52,845 bases of DNA from Patescibacteria group bacterium. Lineage in GTDB: Bacteria; Patescibacteriota; Minisyncoccia; GCA-002772825. The notes under the pieces are model-generated. The model saw nothing but the letters and a program-made list of their open reading frames with translations. It made no database searches and had not been told where the DNA came from. Shown here piece by piece: positions 16,494-44,007 of the stretch. The stretch's first letter is position 1. Each line of letters begins with the position of its first letter. The position numbers and the translations under genes were made by a program. The stretch is taken from the NCBI GenBank assembly GCA_024654625.1, contig JANLHB010000021.1, positions 1 to 52,845 of the forward strand, written 5' to 3'.

Positions 16494-16513
16494 CTAATGG
16501 CTAGTGGCTAAAT
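16494..16513. repeat. CTAG-rich motif copy forming the last codons and stop of prfB
   Basis: CTAATGGCTAGTGGCTAAAT. Its reverse complement encodes ..LATSH*. 17/18 identical to 4335-4352. Confidence 0.8.
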
Positions 16514-17396
16514 CTTGCTCCGCCTCTATGAATTCATCTAATCCTCCGTCTAAAACCTTTTCTACATCACGTTCCTCTACTCCCGTACGATGATCTTTTA
16601 CAAGCTTATATGGGTGAAAGACATAAGACCTGATCTGGCTTCCCCATTCAGGAGAAACTTCTTTGCTTATTTTCATCAAAGCCATCTCTTTATCCTTCTC
16701 ATCTTCTATCAATTTATATATCTTAGCCCTTAACATATTGAGAGCTCTTTCTTTGTTCTGCGCCTGAGAACGTTCCGTCTCACAGTGTACTGCGAGTTTC
16801 GTCGGTATATGCACGACCCTTACCGCCGTCTCTCTCTTATTAACATTTTGCCCTCCGGCGCCTGAACTTCTGGCAAATTCATATCTGATATCCTTCTCTG
16901 GAATATCCATATCGCCCTTATCAACAATAACAGGCACAACCTCAAGCAAAGCAAAAGAAGTATGCCTGAGCTTCTTAGCTGAAAATGGCGATATTCTCAC
17001 AAGCCGATGAACTCCTTGTTCTTTTTTTAATTTACCATAAGCGCCACTGCCCGTAACTTCAAAAGTAATATTTTTATAACCCTGCCTGCCGGCAGGCAGG
17101 CGCCTCTCAGCACCTTCGTGCTTGTGAATTATTTTAAGCGACCAACCTTTCTTCTCAATATATTTAGAATACATATCAAAAAGGATCCTTGTCCAATCTT
17201 CCGCATCGTCTCCACCGGCGCCGGAAAATAAGGTGAGTAAAGCGCCCCCTTTATCGTATTTGCCAAGTCCGGAAAGTTTATCCTTAAGCTCGTTTAATTC
17301 TTTGATTATGTCTTGCGCTTTCGCTTTATCGTCCCAGAAATTAGGCTCCTGCATACTCCTCTCAATATTTTCTATTCTTTCTTTAATTTCGCTCAT
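16494..17396 (-). CDS. prfB: Peptide chain release factor 2, short form, no programmed frameshift
   Basis: 300 aa with the SPF tripeptide (RISPFSA) and GGQ (SGAGGQNVNK). It is a single uninterrupted ORF and carries an in-frame LPAGRQ palindrome. Confidence 0.9.
   Translation of the reverse strand: MSEIKERIENIERSMQEPNFWDDKAKAQDIIKELNELKDKLSGLGKYDKGGALLTLFSGAGGDDAEDWTRILFDMYSKYIEKKGWSLKIIHKHEGAERRLPAGRQGYKNITFEVTGSGAYGKLKKEQGVHRLVRISPFSAKKLRHTSFALLEVVPVIVDKGDMDIPEKDIRYEFARSSGAGGQNVNKRETAVRVVHIPTKLAVHCETERSQAQNKERALNMLRAKIYKLIEDEKDKEMALMKISKEVSPEWGSQIRSYVFHPYKLVKDHRTGVEERDVEKVLDGGLDEFIEAEQDLATSH
17081..17100. repeat. 20-bp perfect palindrome CCTGCCTGCCGGCAGGCAGG (copy inside prfB)
   Basis: Exact 20-mer, read on the minus strand as R-LPAGRQ-G. 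Confidence 0.95.
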
Positions 17397-17843: not shown

Positions 17844-18506
17844 CTAACTTCTTATTACAACTGATTTTATTAAATCTTTAAAATGATACATAGCCTTGCC
17901 ATCAGTCATATCTTCTACTAAAAATAATTTTACAAAAGGTTTTATCCGAAGAATATTTTTTAGAAATTCTATCTCTTCTAGACAAGGGAACGGATGCACC
18001 CATGCACTTTTTTGACACTGGTAAAACCCTAGATCAACCAACTTCTTACGCAGCGCGACCCTATCTTTTCGGCGTGACTCTGGAACATCAAAAATCACTA
18101 AGCGCCATTTTTTATCCCACACTTGTGGCTTTTTAATCTGAAATTCATCAAAGATAAACTTTTTAATTTTATCTTTACCTTTTTTGGAGAGACTATACAC
18201 TAAATACCCATCTTTTTCTTTTATAAATTGTAACTCTCTCCGTTTTTTCAAAGTGTTAAAACTATTCCAGATTTTTTGATAATCTTCATAAGATTTTTTC
18301 TTTCGGCTGGTCTGCATTCTATTTAAACCACCAGCTAAACCTGGGGCTACCGCCCCTATTGTTAAAACTCCACCAACCGCAATAATAGCCAAAGTAGCAT
18401 GTAATATAGTCCTAGCCTTTGGATTTTCTTTAATAATTTTTTCAACCTCTTTTCTCAAGGTCGGCTCAAGTGTGTTCTCAAATTTTATCGGTCTATGTTT
18501 TGGCAT
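17844..18506 (-). CDS. Hypothetical membrane-anchored protein with a PaaX-like / Cas2-fold-like C-terminal region
   Basis: 220 aa with one TM helix, a winged-helix-like segment (DGYLVYSLSKKGKDKI), then WRLVIFDVPESRRKDRVALRKKLVDLGFYQCQKSAWVHP. Confidence 0.4.
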   Translation of the reverse strand: MPKHRPIKFENTLEPTLRKEVEKIIKENPKARTILHATLAIIAVGGVLTIGAVAPGLAGGLNRMQTSRKKKSYEDYQKIWNSFNTLKKRRELQFIKEKDGYLVYSLSKKGKDKIKKFIFDEFQIKKPQVWDKKWRLVIFDVPESRRKDRVALRKKLVDLGFYQCQKSAWVHPFPCLEEIEFLKNILRIKPFVKLFLVEDMTDGKAMYHFKDLIKSVVIRS

Positions 18507-18672: not shown

Positions 18673-19860
18673 CTATTCCCTAAGCCTCAAACTCCACAAA
18701 CTGGAGTCTTTTTTATTAGTGAAAAAGAGGTAACCTTCGTTTGAACTTAAGAAAAGATTAGTCGCGTCAAAGTTATCTGAGATACCGGCTATAAGCTCGG
18801 TATTACCATCGCTTAGATTGATCTTCCAGATAAGATCAGTGAAAGATACGAGCCCTTGATACCAGTCATCAGGGTAAAGAGCAGAAAGCACTATACCAGG
18901 AACACCGCAATACACATATACGCTGTCATAAGAAAAGACGCACTTCTCGGCAAGGGTTGATAGAGGAAATTCAGAAGCCTCACCAGTCTCTATATTGTAA
19001 ACTCTTGTTCTGATGGTGTTCTGCCCGCTTTCATTATATAAGACGTTTTCCCCGCTACTATCCAGTATTGCGTCAAGGCCCTTTATATTACCAAGTATCT
19101 TGGTAAATTTACCTGTCTTTGCGTCAAGAGAGTAGAAGAATCCGTCTGCTGTGCCAGAAGGTTTCGTCAATAAAGTAATGATATTTTTTGACGGCCAAGA
19201 AAGATTCCATTGCCCAAACGATGATGAGAATATCTGCTTTTTATTTTTATTTTCAAAATCAGATGTAACACCTATCGTCTGTTCTCCTTGCCTATAAGTG
19301 TAGAAGATTTTATTTTCTTCAGGAGAAATTACAGCCGAAGAAATATCAGCAGGAAGGAATACTCCTTCTACAGAGGGGGTTGTGCTTGCTCTATCTTCAC
19401 TACTTAAACCTGCTAAGAAATTTCTCACGGATTCTACTCCGTCATCAACAGTCAAATATCTAAAAAGAAAATTATCCCCAGTGGAAGAAAAATCAGCTTC
19501 AAAAATTTTCGGTATGGTTGTGTTTGAGGTACGGTTTCTTTCTGTGCCGTCAGGATTTATCTCATAAATATTACCGGTTGCCCTATCAACATATATAACC
19601 TTACCTCTGGCATAAGTAGCGCCTGAAACCGAAGCTAAAGAAAGTTTTATTAATACGAAATTTTTCCCACTGGTAAGACCATTTCCATCAAACGACCCTG
19701 AAGACAAGGGGTTGATATTACCACTACCACTATCAGGGAAAAAACCTTTAGGCGCGCTGTCGGAAGGAGCTTTATCTTCATTGTTTCTACCCATAAAAAC
19801 AAAAGCACCGAGTCCGATGACTGCTAATACTACGACTGCAATTATTATTTTTCTATTCAT
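18673..19860 (-). CDS. Hypothetical exported protein (last gene of the T4SS-like operon)
   Basis: 395 aa with an N-terminal signal anchor and a beta-rich sequence; 4-nt overlap with the upstream gene. Confidence 0.6.
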   Translation of the reverse strand: MNRKIIIAVVVLAVIGLGAFVFMGRNNEDKAPSDSAPKGFFPDSGSGNINPLSSGSFDGNGLTSGKNFVLIKLSLASVSGATYARGKVIYVDRATGNIYEINPDGTERNRTSNTTIPKIFEADFSSTGDNFLFRYLTVDDGVESVRNFLAGLSSEDRASTTPSVEGVFLPADISSAVISPEENKIFYTYRQGEQTIGVTSDFENKNKKQIFSSSFGQWNLSWPSKNIITLLTKPSGTADGFFYSLDAKTGKFTKILGNIKGLDAILDSSGENVLYNESGQNTIRTRVYNIETGEASEFPLSTLAEKCVFSYDSVYVYCGVPGIVLSALYPDDWYQGLVSFTDLIWKINLSDGNTELIAGISDNFDATNLFLSSNEGYLFFTNKKDSSLWSLRLRE

Positions 19861-20444
19861 TTTTTCAAATTTAATTCATGGAAATAACAATCCATAGTTA
19901 TATTATAACTATCACCTGCTTTAATAGCATCAGAAGCACTCTTACACTTATCCATGTCATCATAAGGACCTATAGCTCTACTGCCATTAGAACTTTGATA
20001 AGAAAAATAATAACCACTGGCAGGAGGAATAATAGGTGCTGATATATCCACAGGATCTTCCTTCTTTGTAATCGGATCAATACCTAAACTCATATTAACC
20101 AAATTCGGATTTATGGTATATAAGATCAAGTAAGCTGACACGGCAAGGAGCAACCCATAGATAGCGCTTTCAATCCTTTTCTTCCCGGCTGTTTTAAGCC
20201 CCTCGCTTCCCCCGCCGGCAAGTTGTAAACCGCCGATCACTATCATAACTACAGCAAGCACGGCCGTCACAGTAAGGGCGAAAGGGAAAAGCCAGCTAAG
20301 ATAACTAGACAAAGTAACATCTGTCTCATTAAGGCCAGGCAACGGCTCAAGCAGTTCATAGGCAAAGGCTGACACGGGCGACATTAAGATCACGCCAAGC
20401 GCTATGACTGCTAATCCTTTGATTTTTAATATTTTTTTCATCAT
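19857..20444 (-). CDS. Hypothetical membrane protein, possible VirB2/TrbC-like pilin
   Basis: 195 aa with a signal peptide (..SPVSAFA) followed by two hydrophobic helices. The assignment rests on topology only. Confidence 0.35.
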   Translation of the reverse strand: MMKKILKIKGLAVIALGVILMSPVSAFAYELLEPLPGLNETDVTLSSYLSWLFPFALTVTAVLAVVMIVIGGLQLAGGGSEGLKTAGKKRIESAIYGLLLAVSAYLILYTINPNLVNMSLGIDPITKKEDPVDISAPIIPPASGYYFSYQSSNGSRAIGPYDDMDKCKSASDAIKAGDSYNITMDCYFHELNLKK

Positions 20445-20447
20445 TTC

Positions 20448-21422
20448 TTAATTATTACCGAAAATAATCTTTAAAGCGGTGTTTGCAAATTGCAAAACAT
20501 TAAAATTATTTTTAACATTTAACGCTATAGACGACTCACCCCTCTCACCTTCCGGCACCTTCAACTTCAATATATTAGGCGCTTCATCAGGCAAGATGCT
20601 ATTCCTATTCATCTTCCAGTCAAAAGAAATGTTATTCCTAGAAAAGAAGAATGGCTCTGCTCGCAGACTTATCTCACTATCAACTTCAACTGACCCTTTT
20701 AAAGCCTCTTCATATCTTGGACCTTCAAGAGGGTGGTCTTTATATAAAAGGATTCTGGGTTTCATGCTTCCCAAAGGCAATATTATCCCTTTCTCAAAGA
20801 CGATATCATTTGTCCTGCTTGATACCTTAAGACTGATAGTATAATCATCTTGATCTTTTGTCTGAAAGATAAAATAATCCTTACCGGCACCAGAAGCGCT
20901 CTTATCTTTCTTAAAGTTTAAAGACCATTCATATATAAGGTCGGAAGATTTGAGCATTGAACCATTTTTAAACAGATAAGGAATCGCCGTCACCTTTACT
21001 TGCGATTGCAATGAGGGTAGTGACCTCCCCTTATAAGAAAAAGGGGTTGTGGTAATAGCCTCCCAAAGAAGGTCTAAGTCGTTACCCACAAGGACAACTG
21101 AATCCGAACCAAAGTCCCCTTCAACGGTTGTTACCGAAGCGGAAACAGTACTCTTTTTCCCGAAAGCTGGAGCACTAAAATTAATCACATCTTTACCTAT
21201 CCCCTTAGATAAAACCTTACCGTCAACACTCCATGTTATGGAAGCGCGGTCAACGTCAAAGTGAAGACTCTTCAATTTAGCCGTTACCGTGCTCCCTGGA
21301 GTCGGGTTCTGCGGTATAAGGGTGACAGAAAAATCAGCCCCTGCTGACTCTGAAGTATTAGGCAAACCTAAAAAGACTATAAAGATCAGTGTGATTAAAA
21401 ATTTGAATATAAAATCTCTCAT
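20448..21422 (-). CDS. Hypothetical secreted protein
   Basis: 324 aa with an N-terminal signal sequence, inside the operon. Confidence 0.6.
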   Translation of the reverse strand: MRDFIFKFLITLIFIVFLGLPNTSESAGADFSVTLIPQNPTPGSTVTAKLKSLHFDVDRASITWSVDGKVLSKGIGKDVINFSAPAFGKKSTVSASVTTVEGDFGSDSVVLVGNDLDLLWEAITTTPFSYKGRSLPSLQSQVKVTAIPYLFKNGSMLKSSDLIYEWSLNFKKDKSASGAGKDYFIFQTKDQDDYTISLKVSSRTNDIVFEKGIILPLGSMKPRILLYKDHPLEGPRYEEALKGSVEVDSEISLRAEPFFFSRNNISFDWKMNRNSILPDEAPNILKLKVPEGERGESSIALNVKNNFNVLQFANTALKIIFGNN

Positions 21423-21757
21423 AAAATTTTTTCTATTTTCTTTACCGCTCGCTCTTTTGCTATTATAGCAATAATTCCGCCAGTGAACACTGGTAGAGCG
21501 CTTAAAAATGGTATAGGCAATATTTCAATTATAAAACTTCCTCCGGATATCCATTTACTGGCGCCACTAACACCCTTTAAAGTAAGCCAGAGCCAGAAAG
21601 TCAGACCTGCGAAAATACTTATAAACTTGTTCAGAATAAAACCGATTATAGGTATAAACTCAAAAACAAATTGAATCGCATCAAAAAATATAGCTACTGC
21701 AAGCATTAAAGAGGCCGTTGTTTTATCTATCTTATTTTGATATTTTTCTTCATCCAT
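21419..21757 (-). CDS. Small polytopic membrane protein
   Basis: 112 aa with about 3 TM helices; 4-nt overlap with the downstream gene. Confidence 0.55.
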   Translation of the reverse strand: MDEEKYQNKIDKTTASLMLAVAIFFDAIQFVFEFIPIIGFILNKFISIFAGLTFWLWLTLKGVSGASKWISGGSFIIEILPIPFLSALPVFTGGIIAIIAKERAVKKIEKIL

Positions 21758-21767
21758 AAGGTCAAGC

Positions 21768-23576
21768 TTAATTTTGATTAAAGTCTTCCTTAGCTTTCTT
21801 TATCGCCATTAGCTGTGCCGGGTCTGAAGTGATAATCTGATCTTCCGTATAAGAAGCCAATACTTTTATCGCCACATGCTTCATACCGGCAAAAAATATC
21901 CCCTCCCCGACATCTGACTCAAGCAATAGAAATTTCTCTTCATCTGTAAGGTTGAAAGTCTTCTGGACGATATCTATAGAGGCCGGAGACTGCTTCAAGA
22001 GGAGCTGTATAGAAGAGTTAGTGATGATAGGCAACCCGTAAGGAGACTTGAGAAAATCGTTTACATCTTGGGTGATAGTGGCAAGTCCAAGATAATATTT
22101 CCTGCACCTCTTAGCGATACCGAAAAGGAAAGAAGCCGTATCTTCATGCTTCATCATCCACCACGCCTCGTCTATTACAAGGAGTCTTTTCTTAATATTC
22201 TTTCTAATGGCATTCCAAATAAAGTGAGTTATCAAATACATAGCAACCGGCCTTAATTCATCTTCCATATCTCTTATAGAAAAAACTACGAAATTCCTAT
22301 TTATATCCACATTAGTCGGCTGATTTATAAAGCCCGACCATGTCCCCTTAGTATATTTACTCAAACGTTCCGCTAAAGATTCTGCGCCCTCCATACTCGC
22401 AAGCACCATTTCAAGCTCTGAGAGGATTGGTGGCACCGCTTTAGAAAAATCTGACTCTGGCGTAATATCTCGCGAAGCATAAGTCTCTGTAATGGCTCTG
22501 TCTAAGATAGCATCCTCCTCCGGAGTAAGCCCTCCGAGCATTATCCTGAAGAGCCCTACCAAGCTGATGATGTTTGAGCGCAAGACATCTTCCGGAGATT
22601 CTCCTTCTGCCGGCACCGGAAGGTCAAATGGGTTGATATGATGCTTTGAAGAAAGAGAGATATTGAAATATCTTCCGTCAACAGCCTCGGCTAAATATTC
22701 ATATTCTCTTTCCGGGTCAATAACAATAACCTCTGTGCCAAACATTAAGCTCCTCAAAACTTCAAGTTTTGTAGTATAAGACTTACCGGAACCGGCCTTG
22801 GCAAAAACTACGGAATTATAATTCTCCAGTGAAAATCTATCAAAAAGGACTAATGAACTGTTATGCCTGTTTATACCGTATAAAATTCCCTTATCTGAAG
22901 TAAGGTCAAAAGAAACAAAAGGAAAAATACTTGAAAGCGGGGATGAATTTAACCTTGAAGAAACTTCAAGCTTGTCTGTGCCTAAAGGAAGCACGCTCTC
23001 AAGACCCTCCTTTTGCTGGAATAATGCCGGCTTCACATATACCAACTTTGATTCAAGGATAGTGCGCACCTCTGACTCAATTTTATTTAATTCGTCTAGA
23101 TCATCGGCAAAGACAGTAAGATATAAACCGATATTAAAAAGTTTTTCTGTCGCTTGCTGGAGCTGGTCGCGCAAATTCTCAAGATCTTGATAAGCGGTAT
23201 CAAGGACGGGGTCTCGGACTAGCCCTTTCTCTTCTCTTATATGTATCTGAGACTGCACTTCGGCAACCTTCTTCTGAAGCTGTCTTAAAACGACTGACGT
23301 TTCTACTGGATGGATAAATATTGAAATATTAAAAACTTTATCCAAGTTAATAATCGGCGAGAACCAATTTGAAGCAAGAAAACGCGGATAAGAAACCACA
23401 AAAAAAGTCCTTGCGACTTTCTCCCCTATCCTTACATTGCTTGAATTTATCTCTAAGGCTGACGGAGCGATAATGTCTTGCAGCTCCATTACGCCCGTCT
23501 CATAAACCTGCTCAGGGAAAACAGGCATTATCTCCGTATCCTTATTTTTCTTATCTGTGTTAAATAAATTAATCAT
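21768..23576 (-). CDS. virB4: VirB4/TrbE/TraC-family type IV secretion ATPase
   Basis: 602 aa with Walker A AKAGSGKSYT, Walker B RLLVIDEAWWM and an N-terminal R.G...ARTFFVVSYPRFL-type segment. Confidence 0.85.
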   Translation of the reverse strand: MINLFNTDKKNKDTEIMPVFPEQVYETGVMELQDIIAPSALEINSSNVRIGEKVARTFFVVSYPRFLASNWFSPIINLDKVFNISIFIHPVETSVVLRQLQKKVAEVQSQIHIREEKGLVRDPVLDTAYQDLENLRDQLQQATEKLFNIGLYLTVFADDLDELNKIESEVRTILESKLVYVKPALFQQKEGLESVLPLGTDKLEVSSRLNSSPLSSIFPFVSFDLTSDKGILYGINRHNSSLVLFDRFSLENYNSVVFAKAGSGKSYTTKLEVLRSLMFGTEVIVIDPEREYEYLAEAVDGRYFNISLSSKHHINPFDLPVPAEGESPEDVLRSNIISLVGLFRIMLGGLTPEEDAILDRAITETYASRDITPESDFSKAVPPILSELEMVLASMEGAESLAERLSKYTKGTWSGFINQPTNVDINRNFVVFSIRDMEDELRPVAMYLITHFIWNAIRKNIKKRLLVIDEAWWMMKHEDTASFLFGIAKRCRKYYLGLATITQDVNDFLKSPYGLPIITNSSIQLLLKQSPASIDIVQKTFNLTDEEKFLLLESDVGEGIFFAGMKHVAIKVLASYTEDQIITSDPAQLMAIKKAKEDFNQN

Positions 23577-23600
23577 AATAAATCAAAAATTGAAATCTCA

Positions 23601-23616
23601 ATTCGCCAGCTGGCGA
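23601..23616. repeat. 16-nt perfect GC palindrome
   Basis: TTCGCCAGCTGGCGAA. Confidence 0.9.
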
Positions 23617-23654
23617 AGCACAATTACAAATTAAAGTCATAAAATTTTTTAATC

Positions 23655-23744
23655 TCAAAATCATTTTTAAATTTTGTCCCGATGGCTTTGCCATCGGGGA
23701 TCCTCGATAAAATCGGGACATTGTCATTTTTCATTTTGATATTT
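23655..23744. repeat. Inverted-repeat arm A, an AT-rich 48-nt module split by a 42-nt GC-rich hairpin insert (23676-23717)
   Basis: 23655-23675 and 23718-23744 match the reverse complement of 24824-24871 with 3 mismatches. The insert is GTCCCGATGGCTTTGCCATCGGGGATCCTCGATAAAATCGGG. Confidence 0.85.
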
Positions 23745-24398
23745 TCAGTTTACATTTTGTTTGGTTACACTCTTATCAAGCTCGCCCGGGTTAAATAATT
23801 TAAAATATAGTTCTATAAGTTCTTCGGTGTTGAGCGGGACAGACCTTATCCCCATACTGGAAAGTCCTCCTGAGACGACGTCTGCTCTCTGCTGAAGCTG
23901 AACTTTATTTTCAATAAATAATTCGTCTTCCGACTTTATCTTTTTAACATCTTTCTTCTTGCCGAAAATACCCATAACGCTATCTAAGACTCCGCTAGCT
24001 GAAGCAAATCCTGACGGAGAATAAGGCACTACCAAGTAGAAAGACTTAGAAACAATATCTGTAGTAGAGACAAAATTCTTGATAAACTCGGAATACTCTC
24101 TTGTCTGGACTTTCAAGAGTTCATTAGGCTGTTCCTTCTCAATATCTGACAGCATATTAAGATACGGCCCGATATCAAGCTTGCTTGATTCAATAAAAAT
24201 CTGCACCGGAAAATCAAGAGAGTTTAAGAAGTTCTGATACTGCATAATGATAGCCGTCTGCTCGTCCTCAGATCTTAAAGCGAAATTTAAACTGGAAGCC
24301 ATCACCACCATACGCATGGAATTATCACGGAGGATAACCACTCCGTCTCTGACTTCCTTTATGGGAACAAATTGTTGTGTAGGTTTAGAGTTAATCAT
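23745..24398 (-). CDS. Hypothetical protein of the T4SS-like operon
   Basis: 217 aa with no TM helix. The segment VVMASSLNFALRSEDEQTAIIMQYQNFLNSL is reminiscent of N-terminal regions of Gram-positive VirB4-type proteins, from memory only. Confidence 0.55.
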   Translation of the reverse strand: MINSKPTQQFVPIKEVRDGVVILRDNSMRMVVMASSLNFALRSEDEQTAIIMQYQNFLNSLDFPVQIFIESSKLDIGPYLNMLSDIEKEQPNELLKVQTREYSEFIKNFVSTTDIVSKSFYLVVPYSPSGFASASGVLDSVMGIFGKKKDVKKIKSEDELFIENKVQLQQRADVVSGGLSSMGIRSVPLNTEELIELYFKLFNPGELDKSVTKQNVN

Positions 24399-24400
24399 TT

Positions 24401-24805
24401 TTATTTTTTAATGTCCAAGCTCCAGGCCAGATCTTTCAGTTTGCTATTCGTTAACTTTGGCGCATATACACCCGCGCCAGACGATTTATTTATTGAACCT
24501 GTAGTCTTAACTGTAACATTTTTAGGTTTGTCTTTCTTCCATAGATAAAGCCTTGAAGAAGAATTATAATTAATGGCGTTTTCAACCACTTTTATAAACG
24601 GCTGATTATTAATCTTATAAAAAGCAAGCGCTAATACAAAGACTACAACAGGAGTCGCAAATATAATTGTAAGCCAAAACGGAAAAATAACATAAAATAG
24701 AAAACTTATACCGCCACCGCCGGCAAGATAAATAAACTGCTTCAAAGTAAGCGGTCCGAAGATCTTATCTTCTACTTCTGTGAATTGTGGGACTTGGAAT
24801 CTCAT
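24401..24805 (-). CDS. PrgI-family (VirB3-like) membrane protein
   Basis: 134 aa; the N-terminus MRFQVPQFTEVEDKIFGPLTLKQFIYL followed by 2 TM helices is typical of the PrgI family. Confidence 0.7.
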   Translation of the reverse strand: MRFQVPQFTEVEDKIFGPLTLKQFIYLAGGGGISFLFYVIFPFWLTIIFATPVVVFVLALAFYKINNQPFIKVVENAINYNSSSRLYLWKKDKPKNVTVKTTGSINKSSGAGVYAPKLTNSKLKDLAWSLDIKK

Positions 24806-24823
24806 AGTAAAAATTTAAAATTT

Positions 24824-24871
24824 AAAAATCAAAATGGAAAATGACAATGTAAAATTTAAAAATAATTTTGA
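24824..24871. repeat. Inverted-repeat arm B (uninterrupted 48-nt module)
   Basis: AAAAATCAAAATGGAAAATGACAATGTAAAATTTAAAAATAATTTTGA is the reverse complement of arm A without the GC insert. Confidence 0.85.
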
Positions 24872-24894
24872 TTTTTGATTTTTGCAATTTACAT

Positions 24895-25692
24895 TTATTT
24901 CACTGGCTCTCTATATGGATCGCCTTCAGGATATTTGTCTCCACCTGGGCCCAACGGCTTATCGCCATCATGCTCTGAAACCTCCGGCGGTCTTCTTGAT
25001 ATCTGCGGTTTTGGCGGGAAAGGAACTCCGCCGCTTTTTACATATTCTTTAGGTAAATCTTCTTTCGCTACAACTATTGATTCCTCTTTTTCTTCCATAA
25101 CAACAGGCAGTGTGGATGGCATAGAAGGAATAGGTATCTCTTTTCCCTCTCCTTCAACAGAAACAGTTTCTTGCTTTAGTGTTTGAGCATTACTAGTGCT
25201 TTCATTTACTTTAGCGTCACTAAAGACTTGTGGCATAGGAATAGATTCAGGTGACTCTATCTCTTTCAATATATCTTCCTTGCTTAATGTTTTAGCAGGT
25301 TCTGGCTCTCTTACGGTTTCCTGTTTTAGCGATTCTGCAGTATCTTTCTCACTATCTTCTTCGTCTTTTATATTGTGAATCCTTTTGAGTGACTCTCTAA
25401 TCTTAGAAAATATCCTATCGTTAACTTCAGCAGTGATATCATGAGCGGTCTTTTTATCCACACCCAAGCGCCGACTAATGTTTGGCATAAAATCTTTCGG
25501 CTCAGTAACGCCGATCATCAAAAGACCAATCTCATCAGCCAGTTCGCTCATCTTATCAATAGTCAAATTATTCTTCTTAGATATATCTTGGATAATTTCA
25601 GTAGAATCGACAGAAAAAATCGCTTCTCTAACATCACCGGGAAGATCTTTATACTTATCCATTAATTTACTATTATATTGATTATTACTCAT
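24895..25692 (-). CDS. Hypothetical acidic/Pro-rich protein
   Basis: 265 aa with a structured N-terminal roughly 100 aa, then a low-complexity E/K/P-rich tail with a repeated LKQETV. Confidence 0.6.
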   Translation of the reverse strand: MSNNQYNSKLMDKYKDLPGDVREAIFSVDSTEIIQDISKKNNLTIDKMSELADEIGLLMIGVTEPKDFMPNISRRLGVDKKTAHDITAEVNDRIFSKIRESLKRIHNIKDEEDSEKDTAESLKQETVREPEPAKTLSKEDILKEIESPESIPMPQVFSDAKVNESTSNAQTLKQETVSVEGEGKEIPIPSMPSTLPVVMEEKEESIVVAKEDLPKEYVKSGGVPFPPKPQISRRPPEVSEHDGDKPLGPGGDKYPEGDPYREPVK

Positions 25693-25709
25693 ATTATTAT
25701 CTTAATCTT

Positions 25710-27770
25710 TTAACCTTCATACTCTTCTTTATTTTTATCTATTTTATCTCCTATTGTTTGTGATTTATCCTCAAGCTCTTCTTTAGCACCATACTCTTTC
25801 ATTATGGATTTGGCAGCCGGACCACTTGTAAGCCAAGCGGCAATTGATTTATTATTTATTCCTTTCTTATCACTAAGTTTCTCGATAATCTCATTGATAT
25901 CTTTTGTATCACTAAGCCCGGCAATTTGTTCAAAGAAAGCATCTGCGACATCTCCACCCATATCAGCCAATTTCTTAACATCCGCAGCGCTAAAATTCTT
26001 TATCATCAAGTCTATGTTCTCCTTGTTACCAAAAATTTTATCCCTAACTTTCTTATTAATATTTTCAAGATGTGCCATTGATAAATTCTCCAGAGCGACT
26101 ACCTTCATCTTTTCATCTGTGAAAATCTTCTCGACGACTGAGTCATCCATCTTCTCCAAATCAGCCGGTTTAATAGCTTTTATAGACTTAACAACACCTT
26201 CATCAACCTCCTTGTATTTTTCATCCATATTGCCAGTTGTAGCCAGATCAGGTCTTACTTTATTAACCTCTTTAGTAGACATACCATACTTATTCATAAT
26301 CTTCTTGCCTTGCTCAATTCTTTCTTGAGTGAAGTTTGTATCCTTTTTATCTCCTTTTTCATCTTTATCTTCAACTTTAAGATTTCCTCGTTTAGCAAGT
26401 TCATTTAAAACAGCTGTCCTGTTAAATGGCATCAATCGAGGAGTCATTTCTTTTAATTCCTTGTCAGTAAATTTCTCATATTTCTTTTGTATCTCTTGAA
26501 TCTTTGCTCTATTAGCGGCAACTATACTTGCCGAGCCATAAGCAACACCTGGTATTTTATTTAAAGTTTGACTAATTTTTCCTTTACCAGTTGCAATATT
26601 TTCTGCGATACCACCTGTAGCGCGTCTTGCAGAACTTAAAGCAATCTTTCCAGCTTTACCTTGTCCCCATTTGCGAGCAGTGGTGCCCCATTTCATCATA
26701 GTGCTTGAGCCGACGGCGCCCATCTTGCTTGCCACAATGAGTGATCCGATCATCAAACCGATAAGAATTATAAAATAAACCAATGTATTTATAGACCCCT
26801 TAAACATAAAGTCCATAACACCAGCGCCTTCTTTCATGCCAATCGCTGTCGCCAGATTGTTTTCACTTATCATCTTGACCACTATATATATCATAAACAT
26901 ATAAGCCGGAGCAAAAAACGATTGAGAGAAAAGAGTTGACCACCATTTTTTTGAATGAGAGCTTGTGGCAGGCAAAATCATACCCGCAAAAGCAAGTGGC
27001 GCCAGTATTATTAAAAATAAAAGAGTAATAGTCCTGATTGAGAAAAGTATTCCGGCGGCAAACAAGACAAAAGAAGTAACTAACATAAGAAGCGTTCCTC
27101 CAAGCGCGCCTATTATTACTCCACCCATGGACATTTGCTCGCCTCCGGGGACACCCAAAGCGGTGGGGTCTGCGGCTATATCAGGCTTGTCATAAGATTT
27201 ATATACTGTTTGAAGCTTAAGCCCCTGCATCAAAACAGAAGAAATACCCGCTTCCGCAGTAATCTTGCTGTAAAATTCAACAGCGACAACATTAGAAGCA
27301 TCTATAACCACCTTTGTAACGACACCGCTAAAATTAACAAGAAGAGCTATGATTATAACTTTCACTAAAAGATCCTTTATACCATAGCCTGCAATCTGTA
27401 AAATTGTAGCTATAGCTATATAAAGAAGAATGAAAATGAAAAATATATTAATGGTATCACGAGCTATAGTCCACCCTGTCGTTATGCCTGCCATATTCGC
27501 ATAACTGTGAAAATCAATGATTGATATCTTCAAAGTTAAATCAAAAAATAATCCGGCAACCCATACAACCAAGCTTGCCATCCACATAATTATATTTGCT
27601 ATATTAACAAGCAACTCCATGAGTTTACCGCCAATCCACTCACCAGGCGATGTTATTGGATTAGCAGCTTCAGCATTATACGCTCCTAAAGGAGAAAAAA
27701 ATACAACAGCAAAAAACACTAAAACTAAAGCCAGTGGCAAAAATTTTCTGATTTTTACTTTAATTGACAT
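25710..27770 (-). CDS. VirB6/TrbL-like polytopic membrane protein with a long K/E-rich cytoplasmic tail
   Basis: 686 aa with a signal peptide, about 7-8 TM helices in the first roughly 370 aa, then a hydrophilic tail. Assigned from topology and operon context. Confidence 0.5.
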   Translation of the reverse strand: MSIKVKIRKFLPLALVLVFFAVVFFSPLGAYNAEAANPITSPGEWIGGKLMELLVNIANIIMWMASLVVWVAGLFFDLTLKISIIDFHSYANMAGITTGWTIARDTINIFFIFILLYIAIATILQIAGYGIKDLLVKVIIIALLVNFSGVVTKVVIDASNVVAVEFYSKITAEAGISSVLMQGLKLQTVYKSYDKPDIAADPTALGVPGGEQMSMGGVIIGALGGTLLMLVTSFVLFAAGILFSIRTITLLFLIILAPLAFAGMILPATSSHSKKWWSTLFSQSFFAPAYMFMIYIVVKMISENNLATAIGMKEGAGVMDFMFKGSINTLVYFIILIGLMIGSLIVASKMGAVGSSTMMKWGTTARKWGQGKAGKIALSSARRATGGIAENIATGKGKISQTLNKIPGVAYGSASIVAANRAKIQEIQKKYEKFTDKELKEMTPRLMPFNRTAVLNELAKRGNLKVEDKDEKGDKKDTNFTQERIEQGKKIMNKYGMSTKEVNKVRPDLATTGNMDEKYKEVDEGVVKSIKAIKPADLEKMDDSVVEKIFTDEKMKVVALENLSMAHLENINKKVRDKIFGNKENIDLMIKNFSAADVKKLADMGGDVADAFFEQIAGLSDTKDINEIIEKLSDKKGINNKSIAAWLTSGPAAKSIMKEYGAKEELEDKSQTIGDKIDKNKEEYEG

Positions 27771-29706
27771 TTATCGTAACACTCGTCTTAGCTTGTAAAC
27801 CTTCATTATCAGTAACTCTTAAACTAATAGTCTTCTGACCGGAGGAATAGCTGACACTTACCGTCCCCGGTGTCGCACCAGAAGAAGCGCTCATACCCCT
27901 AAAACCATTTCCTATTCCTGTCTCTGATCCATCTATGACAATAGACAAACCGGTGCTGCAATTTATGCCCATTCGGCAACCTTGTTCGTCAAATATACCG
28001 TCTCTGTTGTAATCAACAGTCTTCCAGTCATACACGCCGTCGTTATCAAAATCCCATTCATACATAGCAATCTGAGGAGTGCGGTCTATGTCTGCCGAAG
28101 AAGAAGGGTCTAGCGTAAACTGACTGTTGATCGAAGCTGAAGCCGGGGCGTTTATAGCCGGAGTCGGAGTGACTAAATCTACGATATAAGGCAATTCATT
28201 GTTTGGAAACAACGGCTGAGTAGAGAGAGTATGGGTCGCTTCCCTATTGCCGCCCTGATCAACCGCAAACCATCTAATAGTAGTAGATTCATTTGTATTA
28301 AGATCAATCTGTTTTATAAATTTCTGCGAGAAAGTATCCGGTTCAGTGCCGTCTATCGTATAGTAAATTATCGCCGGCTCATTAGAAAGAAGTGTTACAC
28401 TTGTAGGATTGACTGCCACCTCAACAGTAGATGGAACGTATCTGCCGGGGACACTGAAGGGAGACGAGACTTCAAGCGTCCTTATATTTTCTTCATTGAA
28501 AGCCTTATCAATAGCAAACCATTTAAGCGGACTTAGAGGCGCGTTTAAGTTAGTTGAGCTTACAATACTGATAGGACTGCTGTATTTCGTAGAAAATGTC
28601 GTCGGATCAGAACCGTCAAGAGTATAGTAGATACCCGTGAGCGCTTCATTGGCCTTTAGACTGATATGCCATGGATCAAAAACTGAAGCAGTGGACACAG
28701 GAGGAGTAATGTCCATATAACTATTAACGTCAGGTTGACCAGGACCGCCTGAAACTTTATCCCCGGACTTTAAAGCCATAACTCCTTCTTTGGTTAGTCT
28801 ATTTATAGCTGCATCCGTTACTGCCACGACAATATTCTGCCACTCATCACTACTGATAAGCCAATCAATGTCCTTGAAAGCGCCGTAATTCATTGCATCT
28901 GAAACCATCTTACCAGGAGTGCGCACTTCCACCTTAGAGCAGGATGCGTACGATGGGACATCTTCCATTTTCCAGTTACCCGGAGACTTAACGCCATTAA
29001 CAGTTATTTCCTTACATACTTTATCACTTAAAAATCCATAACCTGTTTTTACCTCAGTCTCCAGTGCTAATTTTGCTTTAGCTTCAGCCTCAAGCTTTTC
29101 ATTCAAAGTCATCGTATAAAGACCATAAGGATTATTTTGGGATTCCGAGACACTGAGCCAACCCTTCCATCCTCCATTATTGAAATTATCCATAAAATCG
29201 TTAAAATTCACTCCTATATCGCTTAAGGTGCATCTTGCTTTAGTGCTAAACTTTTTAGGCTTCTGAAGCCCTATCCTTATCCTAATAGCCCAGTCCGGCT
29301 GACAAAGACCCCTCATAAACTCTTCGTTTGTCATTTCTTCTAATATCTGCCCGCCGGCTTCATCTGCTACCTCAGCTAAAAATCCATTAAAATCTGTCAC
29401 AAACTTAGGATTTCCTCCTCCTTGCACCCATTTTACAAGCTCGTCCGTCATATAATCAATCATCTTTTTTCTAAAAATCGCCCAAACGGTTTTTGTAATA
29501 TTATCTTTGACAATCGTTACATAATAATTAATATCTGTAGCATTACTGATAAAATCATTCCAGAGCTGTGAGCAATTACCACATACAAAAGCTTCAGCCG
29601 GACGCGGTCGAATTACATAAGCTGAAGACGATATGACAGTCAGTGCCAATAAAAAACCTGTTATATATTTTTTTATTATTAAATTTTTATCCTTGGAGAA
29701 TCTCAT
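27760..29706 (-). CDS. Large secreted multidomain protein (two CHB_HEX_C-like repeats plus a PKD-like domain)
   Basis: 648 aa with a signal peptide, GIYYTLDGSDPTTFSTKYSSPI and IIYYTIDGTEPDTFSQKF repeats, and C-terminal YEWDFDNDGVYD (PKD-like). Confidence 0.6.
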   Translation of the reverse strand: MRFSKDKNLIIKKYITGFLLALTVISSSAYVIRPRPAEAFVCGNCSQLWNDFISNATDINYYVTIVKDNITKTVWAIFRKKMIDYMTDELVKWVQGGGNPKFVTDFNGFLAEVADEAGGQILEEMTNEEFMRGLCQPDWAIRIRIGLQKPKKFSTKARCTLSDIGVNFNDFMDNFNNGGWKGWLSVSESQNNPYGLYTMTLNEKLEAEAKAKLALETEVKTGYGFLSDKVCKEITVNGVKSPGNWKMEDVPSYASCSKVEVRTPGKMVSDAMNYGAFKDIDWLISSDEWQNIVVAVTDAAINRLTKEGVMALKSGDKVSGGPGQPDVNSYMDITPPVSTASVFDPWHISLKANEALTGIYYTLDGSDPTTFSTKYSSPISIVSSTNLNAPLSPLKWFAIDKAFNEENIRTLEVSSPFSVPGRYVPSTVEVAVNPTSVTLLSNEPAIIYYTIDGTEPDTFSQKFIKQIDLNTNESTTIRWFAVDQGGNREATHTLSTQPLFPNNELPYIVDLVTPTPAINAPASASINSQFTLDPSSSADIDRTPQIAMYEWDFDNDGVYDWKTVDYNRDGIFDEQGCRMGINCSTGLSIVIDGSETGIGNGFRGMSASSGATPGTVSVSYSSGQKTISLRVTDNEGLQAKTSVTINVN

Positions 29707-29715
29707 TTGATAATA

Positions 29716-30681
29716 TTATTTGATTAAATCACTTATTCTATTTCCAAATCCGGCAATAAAGACAGCGAACTCATTTTTAATCCTTTCATTCTCCTGTATA
29801 GCAATTATTGTCTTAAGGGGATCCCTCTTAACCTCTTTCATATTTTCACTTACACGCAAAGATGCCACCGAATACTCCACCCAGCGCTTATGATCTTCTA
29901 CAAAACTTGAAGGGACTGTAATCCGCTTCATTCTTATAATCATTTTTTTATAATAATCTATGTATGGATCAACTAAAGAAATATTATTAGTCTTTGCCAC
30001 CTCTATAAAAACTTCCCCTTCTGTCTTTTTAGGATACGGGATGTCATAAAAAATCTGCTCTAATTCTTTATTATACTTTTCAATCGCTGTTTTACTATTA
30101 TCGCTAGATACATTAAACTCATTTTCGGACAACACGGGACTAAAGCTTGCGATAAAATCTTTCAACAACGCTTCCGTACTGCTATTTGCCTTATCCAGAA
30201 TATCCTGATTATCGGCGCTTAATGGACTAATCCCATTCCCCGCTTGAAGACTTAGATTCTTTGAAAGTAAATCTGTAAGATTCACAGAAGAACTAGTGGG
30301 GTTACTAACCACCCCCACTCCACCCTGACTCAGAGAAGTGCTAATCTTCTCTTCCAGCTTATCGTCTGGTCCGGGCTTGAGTGGGTCCCGACCCTGATTT
30401 ACTTCATCACCATCTAAAGCCCCATCTCCGTCAGTATCAGGATTATCAATATCTGTTTTCCAAAGAGCCTCTTCCCAGTCCTTAAGCCCGTCGTTGTCAG
30501 AATCTTTGTTTAGAGAGTCCATCGCTTGGTTCACCATGCTGATACTATCGTCTTCTTTAGGCAGGTTGTCTTTATATAAATACTTATCACCATACCCTAA
30601 AGCAAAAAACCCTATTGTTAAAACCAACAAGGCAAAAATGGCTAATATAACATTTTTTTTATTTGGTAATACACTTTTCAA
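29716..30681 (-). CDS. Membrane-anchored protein with thrombospondin type 3-like Ca-binding repeats
   Basis: 321 aa with a TM anchor plus DSDNDGLKDWEE and DTDGDGALDGDE; first gene of the operon. Confidence 0.6.
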   Translation of the reverse strand: MKSVLPNKKNVILAIFALLVLTIGFFALGYGDKYLYKDNLPKEDDSISMVNQAMDSLNKDSDNDGLKDWEEALWKTDIDNPDTDGDGALDGDEVNQGRDPLKPGPDDKLEEKISTSLSQGGVGVVSNPTSSSVNLTDLLSKNLSLQAGNGISPLSADNQDILDKANSSTEALLKDFIASFSPVLSENEFNVSSDNSKTAIEKYNKELEQIFYDIPYPKKTEGEVFIEVAKTNNISLVDPYIDYYKKMIIRMKRITVPSSFVEDHKRWVEYSVASLRVSENMKEVKRDPLKTIIAIQENERIKNEFAVFIAGFGNRISDLIK

Positions 30682-40634: not shown

Positions 40635-40637
40635 TTA

Positions 40638-41195: not shown

Positions 41196-41211
41196 AATAT
41201 TTAATTCTTAA

Positions 41212-41742: not shown

Positions 41743-41745
41743 ATT

Positions 41746-42375: not shown

Positions 42376-42395
42376 ATCTATTATCTAATTTTACA

Positions 42396-43172: not shown

Positions 43173-43290
43173 AAAATATATTTTAACATAAAATCCCGCC
43201 AAAAGCGGAATAAAATTTCTACTTATCAATTTTACGGGCACCTATCAACTTTGTGACCTTATGACTTTGTGACTTTACGTACGGTGTGCT

Positions 43291-43313: not shown

Positions 43314-43325
43314 TAGAATAAAGAT

Positions 43326-43967: not shown

Positions 43968-43969
43968 GT

Positions 43970-43992: not shown

Positions 43993-44007
43993 AATTAATA
44001 TATACAT

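What the first reader, a model, noticed from the sequence alone, without database searches (positions are those of the whole stretch)
18673..30681. Eleven-gene T4SS-like operon without relaxase or coupling protein, rich in orphan secreted proteins: a candidate cell-contact apparatus
All eleven genes are on the minus strand and several overlap by 4-11 nt. Only three have recognisable T4SS signatures:
- VirB4 ATPase (21768..23576).
- PrgI/VirB3-like protein (24401..24805).
- VirB6/TrbL-like polytopic protein with a 300-aa K/E-rich tail (25710..27770).

I see no VirD4, relaxase, VirB11, VirB1-type lysin or oriT in the window. The remaining eight genes are signal-peptide or TM proteins without recognisable families. 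One is a possible VirB2-like two-helix protein, and two are large surface proteins.

This minimal Gram-positive-like architecture, in a putative episymbiont, is more consistent with a host-interaction, uptake or secretion machine than with classical conjugation. Most of its components are undescribed.
Basis: partly seen in the sequence, partly recalled or inferred. Interest (0 to 1): 0.7.

Follow-up and report, generated by a model that had tools for sequence, protein, structure and literature searches.

The report
Parcubacteria chromosomal type IV secretion operon
This is the type IV secretion gene cluster already described across the ultra-small Patescibacteria (CPR) bacteria, here in its Parcubacteria form: real, intact and conserved, but not a new kind of system.

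Summary
The eleven co-directional genes at 18673-30681 exist as described. They are the Paceibacteria (Parcubacteria) version of the Patescibacteria-clade type IV secretion system (T4SS), published in Wang 2023 (PMC10633639), Quinonero-Coronel 2025 (PMC12102498) and a 2025 review (PMC12857230).

Five genes, not three, are canonical:
- VirB6-like protein.
- PrgI/VirB3.
- A TrsD-like gene that is the separately encoded N-terminal domain of VirB4.
- The VirB4 ATPase, with Walker A and B motifs intact.
- A VirB2-type pilin (PF18895).

The other six are not random orphans. All eleven genes keep the same order and strand in dozens of the 80 related species-level genomes fetched, whatever flanks them.

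I could give partial descriptions of the six:
- A TolB-like propeller on a membrane anchor.
- A secreted protein with three Ig-like domains.
- A calcium-repeat plus helical-bundle protein.
- A large unannotated extracellular domain with swappable lectin/Ig tails.
- A small polytopic membrane protein.
- A cytoplasmic protein ending in an invariant DPYRE motif.

No coupling protein, relaxase, VirB11 or VirB1 lies in the window or within 10 kb in the relatives. The system is ordinary for this phylum; the novelty lies only in the accessory details.

The parts
29716..30681 (-). g01: N-terminal membrane anchor, calcium-binding TSP3 repeats (D60-E93 invariant acidic motif), C-terminal helical bundle of unknown family. 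First gene of the block; the TTG start is supported by the conserved MxxLPxKK N-terminus.
   Evidence: PF18884 E 6e-9. Same position in 38-50 related loci. AF2 model pLDDT 78. No PDB fold match except the TSP3 segment of 7c7u. One predicted TM at 11-29.
27760..29706 (-). g02: signal peptide/anchor, conserved ~300-aa cysteine-containing extracellular N-domain without a Pfam or PDB relative, then two Fn3_assoc/CHB_HEX_C_1 modules and a PKD-like domain. Overlaps virB6 by 11 nt. Candidate surface or tip adhesin.
   Evidence: Only the N-domain is conserved among relatives. C-terminal modules vary (F5/8 type C, Big_7, surface Ig). The family has 3,730 clusters at E<=1e-3. The AF2 model is unusable (pLDDT 49).
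25710..27770 (-). VirB6/TrbL-like polytopic membrane protein (7 predicted TM segments) with a 291-aa charged, non-conserved C-terminal tail.
   Evidence: PF04610 E 3.7e-4, below the gathering score. TM count and tail composition. Conserved over residues ~60-400 in 62 loci.
24895..25692 (-). g04: cytoplasmic protein with a conserved ~110-aa helical N-domain, a variable E/P/K-rich disordered linker, and an invariant C-terminal DPYRE motif (DPYREPVK-stop here).
   Evidence: No TM. No Pfam or PDB match. Alignment A5. The motif occurs 60 times among 3,378 ORFs of the 80 loci, always at the C-terminus of this gene, and once in the window's six frames.
24401..24805 (-). PrgI/VirB3-like small membrane protein (2 TM).
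   Evidence: PF12666 48 bits against a cut-off of 27. Present in 79/80 loci at ~51% median identity.
23745..24398 (-). TrsD-like protein: the separately encoded N-terminal domain of VirB4.
   Evidence: NF045971 profile positions 1-138 and NF045975 positions 101-233. PF26593 TraC-like in the collection's annotation. A separate gene directly upstream of virB4 in 79/79 loci. TrsD is the commonest T4SS component reported in Patescibacteria (PMC12102498).
23577..23744 (.). 168-nt non-coding spacer between trsD and virB4. It is an AT-rich inverted copy of the g04-prgI intergenic region, with two small GC-rich palindromes inserted.
   Evidence: It is absent in L001 (3-nt gap). L002 has a 92-nt spacer without the GC palindromes. 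No Rfam match.
21768..23576 (-). VirB4-type ATPase (C-terminal three quarters: middle and P-loop domains), Walker A and B intact.
   Evidence: More than 8,000 homologues; the top 120 are 77-97% identical, all ~600 aa, and the named ones are Parcubacteria/Patescibacteria.
21419..21757 (-). g08: small polytopic membrane protein (about 4 TM) of unknown family.
   Evidence: Recognisable in 17-24 loci. The slot between virB4 and g09 holds an ORF of >=70 aa in 50/75 loci, 43 of them with >=2 TM.
20448..21422 (-). g09: secreted protein made of about three Ig-like domains.
   Evidence: Signal peptide. The profile matches T4 Hoc (3shs, E 1.5e-4). Homologues match BiPBP_C (9/41), PKD_3 and Ig_3. Present in 75/80 loci.
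19857..20444 (-). VirB2-type T4SS pilin: Sec signal peptide (..SAFA|YE..), two hydrophobic helices, and a variable ~85-aa C-terminal extension with two cysteines.
   Evidence: PF18895 30.5 bits against a cut-off of 26.6. TM segments at 52-70 and 91-109. Residues 30-120 are conserved in 58 loci.
18673..19860 (-). g11: N-terminal membrane anchor plus TolB/PD40-like beta-propeller with an invariant cysteine pair (C307, C318). Last gene of the block.
   Evidence: The profile matches designed and TolB propellers (E 3e-8 to 1e-3). PD40 and DPPIV_N appear in homologues. Alignment A1. Present in 57 loci.

Best explanation
The block is the vertically inherited, chromosomal type IV secretion system (T4SS) of Patescibacteria in its Paceibacteria (Parcubacteria) layout. 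It descends from the monoderm (MPF_FATA) conjugation machinery and has gained a VirB2-type pilin.

Shown here: an eleven-gene co-directional module.
- Membrane core: VirB6-like protein, PrgI/VirB3, and a two-piece VirB4 ATPase (TrsD plus VirB4) with intact catalytic motifs.
- One Sec-exported pilin.
- Five further exported or membrane proteins and one cytoplasmic protein.
All are kept in the same order across many species.

Inferred mechanism:
- TrsD/VirB4 docks on PrgI and VirB6 at the membrane and powers assembly of a pilin-based filament or conduit through the cell wall.
- The exported accessory proteins form the wall-spanning and host-contact part. These are the calcium-repeat protein g01, the g02 domain with exchangeable lectin/Ig tails, the triple-Ig g09 and the TolB-like propeller g11.
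- The cytoplasmic g04 uses its C-terminal DPYRE peptide to dock on a partner at the channel base.

The machine most likely mediates contact-dependent exchange with the host bacterium on which these cells live: export of proteins or signals, or import of host molecules. Plasmid conjugation is unlikely. The substrate and its direction of travel are unknown.
For: Identity of the core genes:
- Family matches above curated cut-offs for VirB4, PrgI and the pilin.
- TrsD and VirB4 together tile a full VirB4 profile.
- Walker A and B are intact.

Conservation:
- The top 120 VirB4 homologues are 77-97% identical, and the named ones are Parcubacteria or Patescibacteria.
- All 80 loci fetched from species-representative genomes show the same gene order on one strand.
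- The block keeps its boundaries in two different chromosomal contexts. It sits next to the origin (ksgA ... yidC-rnpA, dnaA-dnaN) in at least 40 loci. In the window it lies between a UbiA-family gene and a PaaX-like gene, tRNA-Thr and a release factor.

Against a mobile element:
- G+C content matches the flanks and the neighbours are housekeeping genes.
- No integrase, relaxase or T4CP lies in the window or within 10 kb in the relatives.

Host interaction:
- Compared with the closest relative L001, the ATPase is 94% identical and the flanking FtsE and release factor 86-90%. g01, g02, VirB6 and g04 are only 37-43% identical.
- g02 homologues swap C-terminal lectin/Ig modules.

Literature:
- The homologous Saccharibacteria T4SS and its pilins are essential for epibiotic growth, independently of ComEC (PMC10633639, PMC12857230).
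- Most Patescibacteria T4SS clusters lack a relaxase (PMC12102498).
Against: - No experiment exists for any Paceibacteria T4SS. Function is extrapolated from one Saccharibacteria species whose cluster differs: it has a pilin array and peptidase/lysozyme genes.
- Only one 53-kb window of this genome was available, so a distant T4CP or relaxase cannot be excluded. T4CP homologues far from virB4 are frequent in the phylum (PMC12102498).
- No VirB8-like or VirB1-like component was detected.
- The roles assigned to g01, g02, g04, g08, g09 and g11 rest on conserved position and domain type alone.
- The VirB6 match is below Pfam's gathering score.
Confidence: 0.8

Rival explanations
1. It is the mating-pair-formation half of an ordinary conjugative system. 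The relaxase, coupling protein and oriT are encoded elsewhere in the genome, and the machine transfers DNA between CPR cells or to hosts.
For: VirB4's best family is a conjugal-transfer family (CD1110). T4CP genes are often far from virB4 and are common in Patescibacteria. 103 genomes carry relaxases (PMC12102498). A tRNA-Thr gene lies 1.1 kb downstream of the block.
Against: No integrase, relaxase, T4CP or repeats bounding an element in the window. No such gene is conserved within 10 kb in 80 relatives. The block is found in housekeeping contexts, often beside dnaA, and its G+C matches the flanks. According to PMC12102498, VirB4 phylogeny follows class taxonomy and only 15 relaxases lie near virB4 among 2,474 VirB4 genes.
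Confidence: 0.07
2. It is a DNA-uptake machine, analogous to Helicobacter ComB or the archaeal Ced system, that feeds nucleotides or DNA to a cell unable to make them.
For: Such cells lack nucleotide synthesis. In the ABY1 class, T4SS loci co-localise with comF, recG and radA (PMC12102498). There are weak partial matches of VirB4 to CedB and CedD models. A type IV pilus cluster is nearby.
Against: The CedB/CedD matches are 24-34 bits against cut-offs of 600-700 and cover only the P-loop region. No competence genes lie in or beside the block here or in the relatives. In Southlakia, ComEC accounts for transformation and is dispensable, while the T4SS is essential (PMC12857230).
Confidence: 0.1
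3. It is a decaying remnant of an ancient integrated element with no present function. The split VirB4 and the 168-nt spacer would be signs of decay.
For: VirB4 is in two pieces. The spacer carries small palindromic insertions.
Against: The split is universal (79/79 loci) and both halves are conserved: TrsD ~54% and VirB4 ~75% median identity across species. All eleven ORFs are intact and the catalytic motifs are present.
Confidence: 0.02

Closest known systems
Patescibacteria-clade T4SS (Quinonero-Coronel et al. 2025, PMC12102498; Southlakia epibionticum SEML1_0006-0019, Wang et al. 2023, PMC10633639)
   Same: Chromosomal location. VirB4 of MPF_FATA ancestry. A separate TrsD gene next to virB4. 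PrgI/VirB3, VirB6 and a VirB2-like pilin close by. No relaxase or T4CP in the cluster. No outer-membrane core components.
   Different: This Paceibacteria layout has a single pilin gene rather than the 6-gene array of Southlakia, and no peptidase or lysozyme genes downstream of virB4. It has its own conserved accessory set (g01, g02, g04, g08, g09, g11). Unlike most Paceibacteria relatives, the block here is not next to dnaA/dnaN.
Monoderm conjugative T4SS, MPF_FATA class (pCF10 Prg/Pcf, C. difficile CTn2 CD1110 family, pGO1 Trs)
   Same: VirB4 matches the CD1110 family above its cut-off. PrgI and VirB6-like membrane proteins are present. A TrsD-type VirB4 N-terminal paralogue exists as in pGO1. 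VirB7, VirB9 and VirB10 are absent.
   Different: No relaxase, T4CP (PcfC), VirB1-like hydrolase (PrgK), VirB8-like protein (PrgL) or PrgB-type adhesin was detected. A VirB2-type pilin is present, which those systems lack. The block is not on a plasmid or ICE.
Diderm MPF_T systems (Agrobacterium VirB, R388 Trw)
   Same: A VirB2-type pilin with a signal peptide and two hydrophobic helices. A secreted protein gene immediately upstream of virB6, the position of virB5/trwJ.
   Different: No sequence similarity to R388 VirB1, 2, 3, 5, 6, 8, 9, 10 or 11 by tblastn. The g02 profile against a nine-member VirB5 profile gives hhalign probability 0.2%. There are no outer-membrane parts.
DNA-uptake T4SS relatives (H. 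pylori ComB, archaeal Ced)
   Same: A VirB4-family ATPase used without a relaxase.
   Different: CedB/CedD model scores are far below their cut-offs. There is no ComEC-type or Ced-type partner in the block.

Membership tests
Patescibacteria-clade T4SS (PMC12102498) | VirB4 belongs to the Patescibacteria VirB4 clade nested in MPF_FATA | tested here: met
   The best curated family is the MPF_FATA-type CD1110 (375.6 bits, cut-off 325). The nearest 120 homologues are 77-97% identical, and where named they are Parcubacteria/Patescibacteria. All 80 loci are CPR MAGs. No formal tree with reference VirB4s was built.
Patescibacteria-clade T4SS (PMC12102498) | TrsD-like gene (VirB4 N-terminal homologue) associated with virB4 | tested here: met
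   23745-24398 matches the N-terminal 138 positions of the VirB4 model. It is adjacent to virB4 in 79/79 loci.
Patescibacteria-clade T4SS (PMC12102498) | PrgI/VirB3 and VirB6 membrane components near virB4 | tested here: met
   PrgI is above its cut-off. VirB6/TrbL is at E 3.7e-4, below the gathering score, but has 7 TM segments and is syntenic in 62 loci.
Patescibacteria-clade T4SS (PMC12102498) | VirB2-like pilin gene near virB4 | tested here: met
   PF18895 30.5 bits against a cut-off of 26.6. Same position in 58 loci.
Patescibacteria-clade T4SS (PMC12102498) | Chromosomal, with no relaxase in the cluster | tested here: met
   The flanks are housekeeping genes. No relaxase was found by Pfam in the window or by tblastn in 80 loci.
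Conjugative MPF_FATA T4SS / ICE | Relaxase and oriT linked to the T4SS | tested here: not met
   None in the 52.8-kb window or within 10 kb in the relatives. The rest of the genome could not be searched.
Conjugative MPF_FATA T4SS / ICE | Type IV coupling protein (VirD4/TcpA family) | tested here: not met
   No such domain in any window ORF of 300 aa or more. No tblastn hit to TrwB. The genome-wide state is not testable here.
Conjugative MPF_FATA T4SS / ICE | VirB1-like cell-wall hydrolase and VirB8-like (NTF2-fold) protein | tested here: inconclusive
   No Pfam, NCBIfam or PDB-profile match in any of the eleven proteins. The g02 N-domain model was too poor for a fold search.
Conjugative MPF_FATA T4SS / ICE | Integrase and element boundaries | tested here: not met
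   There is no integrase. G+C is like the flanks. The block is found in two different housekeeping contexts.
VirB5/TrbJ family (considered for g02) | Profile-level sequence similarity to VirB5 | tested here: not met
   hhalign of the g02 alignment against TrwJ gives probability 0.3%, and against a nine-member VirB5 alignment 0.2%. There is no PDB hit to VirB5/TraC.
VirB5/TrbJ family (considered for g02) | Secreted protein encoded next to virB6, with a mature N-terminus of the type x-P-V-x-D followed by a helix | tested here: inconclusive
   The gene overlaps virB6 by 11 nt. The motif occurs just after the signal peptide in 9/51 (strict pattern) or 17/51 (loose pattern) family members, against 7/1164 and 24/1164 background ORFs. 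It is absent from the window's own copy. DUF4141 matches weakly in 2 homologues, at 25 and 15 bits against a cut-off of 30.
DNA-import T4SS-like systems (Ced, ComB) | CedB/CedD-type ATPase at model cut-off, and partner Ced/Com proteins | tested here: not met
   CedB scores 34 bits (cut-off 700) and CedD 24 bits (cut-off 600), both P-loop only. No partners are present.

The most novel reading that the evidence does not exclude
The six non-canonical genes may be a Paceibacteria-specific functional module that replaces the missing canonical parts.
- g02, a family of thousands with no Pfam or PDB relative, would act as a VirB5-like stalk or tip protein that presents exchangeable lectin/Ig domains to the host surface.
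- g01, g09 and g11 would form the wall-spanning scaffold in place of VirB8 and VirB1.
- The cytoplasmic g04 would dock through its invariant C-terminal DPYRE peptide on TrsD/VirB4 and serve as the substrate receptor in place of a coupling protein.

This would make the machine a dedicated host-exchange conduit rather than a DNA transporter.
Probability: 0.15. Interest if true: 0.65.

Novelty: new member of a known kind. Interest (0 to 1): 0.3.

Why it matters
T4SSs are among the few large machines kept in the tiny genomes of Patescibacteria. In the one genetically tractable species the system is essential for growth on the host, yet what it moves is unknown.

This locus adds no new kind of system. 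The comparison across 80 species does give three useful results:
- It delimits an eleven-gene module for the largest CPR class.
- It shows that the 'hypothetical' genes are fixed parts of that module.
- It gives concrete handles for experiments: the DPYRE tail, the large g02 domain family with swapping lectin modules, and the fast-evolving surface parts next to an almost frozen ATPase.

Tried and rejected
1. g02 N-domain structure. The AlphaFold2 model built on a 14-sequence alignment had pLDDT 49, too poor to search. My first homologue search for this domain used too strict an E-value and returned only 2 proteins.

2. g01 fold. The model was usable (pLDDT 78), but Foldseek against the PDB gave nothing below E 0.3 apart from the TSP3 segment.

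3. g02 as VirB5. Tested by hhalign against R388 TrwJ and a nine-member VirB5 alignment, both negative. Only an N-terminal motif in a minority of homologues and two sub-threshold DUF4141 hits remain.

4. g08 as a second pilin. hhalign against the pilin alignment gave probability 1.4%. The Pfam hits of its homologues are scattered noise.

5. Apparent fusions, both rejected.
- The g04-PrgI 'fusions' in L020 and L049 were artefacts of masked N runs and an out-of-frame ORF.
- The TrsD-VirB4 'fusion' in L080 was an error of my ORF caller. A stop codon separates the two.

6. A deeper g02 profile of 54 representatives, searched against the PDB, hit only coiled-coil noise downstream of the domain.

7. 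Promoter and terminator consensus scans were uninformative. There is no Rfam family in the block.

8. The whole genome could not be searched for a T4CP or relaxase.
Full report
**Observation**

The region 18673-30681 holds eleven minus-strand ORFs at exactly the coordinates given. Three junctions overlap, by 4, 4 and 11 nt. Most other gaps are 2-17 nt. The exceptions are 89 nt between g04 and prgI and 168 nt between trsD and virB4.

The block's G+C (0.36-0.41) does not differ from its flanks. The surrounding genes are housekeeping genes of a small-genome bacterium:
- a release factor, ftsE/ftsX and a DEAD-box helicase;
- gatA and an NAD-dependent DNA ligase;
- several tRNA genes.

A complete type IV pilus cluster lies at 40137-51867.

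**Canonical components**

Pfam and NCBIfam identify five canonical genes, not three.
- The 602-aa ATPase (21768-23576) matches the VirB4-like CD1110 family above its curated cut-off (375.6 against 325 bits). It has Walker A (AKAGSGKS, residue 259) and Walker B (LLVIDE, residue 465).
- The 217-aa gene upstream (23745-24398), taken for an orphan, matches positions 1-138 of the same VirB4 model. The ATPase matches positions 185-733. Together they make one VirB4 encoded in two genes. This is the 'TrsD' component that PMC12102498 reports as the most abundant T4SS part in Patescibacteria. The collection's own annotation lists PF26593 TraC-like for it.
- PrgI/VirB3 (24401-24805) and the T4SS pilin PF18895 (19857-20444) are above their cut-offs.
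- The TrbL/VirB6 match (25710-27770) is below the gathering score. Seven predicted TM segments and its position support the call.

**Absences**

No ORF of 300 aa or more in the window carries a T4CP, relaxase, VirB11, VirB1 or integrase domain. tblastn with the R388 proteins finds only VirB4, plus the T4P ATPase PilB with the VirB11 query.

**Relatives and synteny**

VirB4 has more than 8,000 homologues. The best 120 are 77-97% identical and all about 600 aa. Those with names are Parcubacteria, Paceibacteria or Patescibacteria.

A scan of one genome per species returned 80 loci, all CPR MAGs. tblastn of the eleven window proteins shows the same genes in the same order on the same strand wherever the contig reaches far enough.

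| Gene | Loci with a match |
|---|---|
| PrgI, TrsD | 79 |
| VirB4 | 80 |
| g09 | 75 |
| VirB6 | 62 |
| Pilin | 58 |
| g04, g11 | 57 |
| g01 | 38 |
| g02 | 37 |

All-against-all clustering raises g01 and g02 to 50 loci each. By its C-terminal motif, g04 is present in 60 loci.

The small g08 is recognisable in only 17-24 loci. An ORF occupies its slot in 50 of 75 loci, and 43 of those have at least two TM segments.

**Block boundaries**

Outside the block, synteny with the window ends at once, except in the closest relative L001. In at least 40 loci the block lies between ksgA/uvrD on one side and jag-yidC-rnpA and dnaA-dnaN on the other. That is the origin-proximal position reported in PMC12102498.

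The same eleven genes therefore travel together in two different chromosomal contexts. This fixes the block's boundaries at g01 and g11.

**The split VirB4**

TrsD and VirB4 are separate genes in all 79 loci where both are seen. One apparent fusion was my own ORF-calling error. The gap is usually 1-20 nt.

In several loci the gap holds a small inserted gene (family names read from the sequences by eye, not scanned):
- L017, L020, L031, L046 and L073 carry a ~120-aa protein resembling the four-helix-bundle '23S rRNA intervening sequence' proteins.
- L042 carries a GIY-YIG-like ORF.
- L035 carries a ribbon-helix-helix-like ORF.

In the window the gap is a 168-nt non-coding spacer. It is an inverted copy of the g04-prgI intergenic sequence, with two small GC-rich palindromes inserted. 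L001 has no spacer. L002 has a 92-nt version without the palindromes. I could not explain this element.

**The six non-canonical genes**
- **g11** (18673-19860): a membrane anchor plus a TolB/PD40-like beta-propeller with an invariant cysteine pair.
- **g09** (20448-21422): a secreted protein of about three Ig-like domains.
- **g01** (29716-30681): a membrane anchor, calcium-binding TSP3 repeats and a helical bundle. The bundle was modelled with pLDDT 78 and has no PDB fold relative.
- **g02** (27760-29706): a conserved ~300-aa cysteine-containing N-domain followed by variable lectin/Ig modules. Here these are Fn3_assoc, CHB_HEX_C_1 and a PKD-like domain. In relatives they include F5/8 type C, Big_7 and surface Ig-like domains.
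  - The N-domain family is large: 3,730 clusters at 50% identity with E<=1e-3.
  - It has no Pfam or PDB match.
  - Its model was too poor to use.
- **g04** (24895-25692): a cytoplasmic protein with a conserved helical N-domain, a variable disordered linker and an invariant C-terminal DPYRE motif. The motif occurs 60 times among 3,378 ORFs of the loci, always at the end of this gene.
- **g08** (21419-21757): a roughly four-TM protein with no detectable family.

**Is g02 a VirB5?**

For:
- The gene sits directly upstream of virB6 and overlaps it, as virB5 does in MPF_T operons.
- A third of its homologues start their mature chain with a P-V-x-D-type motif like VirB5. The loose pattern fits 17/51 family members against 24/1164 background ORFs.
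- Two homologues give sub-threshold hits to DUF4141. DUF4141 marks the protein encoded next to traJ (VirB6) in Bacteroides conjugative transposons (PMC10434189).

Against:
- Profile-profile comparison with VirB5 is negative, with probability 0.2-0.3%.
- The window's own copy lacks the motif.

I therefore treat 'VirB5-like adhesin' as a positional analogy only.

**Evolutionary rates**

Compared with L001, identities fall into three groups.

| Group | Proteins and identity |
|---|---|
| Core T4SS proteins | VirB4 94%, TrsD 86%, g08 75%, PrgI 73% |
| Flanking housekeeping proteins | FtsE 90%, release factor 86% |
| Fast-evolving block proteins | g02 43%, g04 43%, VirB6 40%, g01 37% |

A frozen motor beside fast-changing exposed or adaptor parts fits a machine that engages a variable partner.

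**Comparison with the literature**

This class of system is described.
- Wang et al. 2023 found the Saccharibacteria T4SS and its pilins essential for epibiotic growth. They noted the missing coupling and relaxase proteins.
- Quinonero-Coronel et al. 2025 surveyed 3,035 genomes and defined the Patescibacteria VirB4 clade within MPF_FATA. They catalogued TrsD, PrgI, VirB6 and VirB2 near virB4, the scarcity of relaxases and the chromosomal, often origin-proximal location.
- A 2025 review lists these systems as essential, pilin-bearing monoderm T4SSs of unknown substrate. It notes that ComEC-dependent competence does not explain their essentiality.

The claim of an undescribed apparatus does not hold.

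**Verdict**

The locus is a real, intact, strongly conserved member of a known kind. What this analysis adds is limited to three points:
- the delimitation of the eleven-gene Paceibacteria module;
- partial annotation of its accessory proteins;
- the DPYRE motif and the size of the g02 domain family.

The function (contact-dependent exchange with a host cell rather than conjugation) is inferred, not shown. A T4CP or relaxase elsewhere in the genome could not be excluded with the data at hand.

Noticed in passing
window 40137-51867 (minus strand): Complete type IV pilus cluster. It comprises PilM (50746-51867), three small unassigned ORFs (49270-50728), PilB (47525-49222), a response regulator (47077-47553) and a PilT-like ATPase (46010-47074). 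It continues with PilC (44791-45999), a pilin (44063-44611), a prepilin peptidase (42396-43241) and three N-methyl minor pilins (40638-42375). It lies only about 9.5 kb from the T4SS block. Both machines are essential in Southlakia according to PMC10633639.
   Followed up: partly
window 23577-23744 and 24810-24871: The trsD-virB4 spacer is an inverted copy of the g04-prgI intergenic region, so prgI+trsD are flanked by inverted repeats. The arms are 23718-23758/24810-24850 (41 nt, 85%) and 23655-23675/24851-24871 (21 nt, 95%). The spacer copy is interrupted by a 42-nt GC-rich hairpin and carries a second 20-nt GC palindrome. Relative L001 has no spacer, and L002 has a 92-nt spacer without the palindromes. 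There is no Rfam match, and the purpose is unknown.
   Followed up: partly
L017:2190-2576, L020:2999-3382, L031:9600-9962, L046:9592-9963, L073:9551-9934, L042:9529-9822, L035:7657-7914: In eight relatives the gap between trsD and virB4 is 400-590 nt, and seven of them hold a clear small inserted gene there. Five carry a ~120-aa protein that looks like the four-helix-bundle '23S rRNA intervening sequence' family. One carries a GIY-YIG-like ORF and one a ribbon-helix-helix-like ORF. These family names were read from the sequences, not scanned. The split point of VirB4 seems to be a recurrent insertion site.
   Followed up: partly
L001-L080, flanks of the T4SS block: In at least 40 of 80 related genomes the same block lies between ksgA/uvrD on one side and jag-yidC-rnpA and dnaA-dnaN on the other, next to the replication origin. 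In the window and L001 it lies elsewhere, between a UbiA-family gene and a PaaX_M/Cas2-like gene, tRNA-Thr and a release factor. The block has therefore been relocated in this lineage.
   Followed up: yes
window 17844-18506 (minus strand): A 220-aa protein with a PaaX central Cas2-like domain sits 166 nt downstream of the last T4SS gene on the same strand. It is shared only with L001 and one other locus, so it is not part of the conserved block. A possible local regulator.
   Followed up: no
window 16494-17396 (minus strand): The peptide chain release factor gene is short (300 aa). The PCRF domain match starts at profile position 86. I did not check whether an upstream frameshifted segment exists, as in prfB.
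   Followed up: no
window 8682-10352 (plus strand): A PIF1-like helicase with a C-terminal HTH_40 domain. The helicase starts at residue 3, so there is no relaxase domain. It is not evidence for a conjugative function.
   Followed up: partly
window 3338-4252, 5518-5916, 32532-32966, 33181-33957, 36324-36884, 40137-40634, 43326-43967, 49270-50728: Several ORFs of 110-304 aa gave no Pfam match at E<=0.001 to 0.01 (the limit differed between scans).
   Followed up: no
L001, L007, L011 and many other loci (record titles): Many species-representative MAG records titled 'uncultured Candidatus Saccharibacteria bacterium' carry a VirB4 that is 73-94% identical to this Parcubacteria-type protein, in the Paceibacteria gene order. 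Those titles look like generic labels rather than true Saccharibacteria assignments.
   Followed up: no
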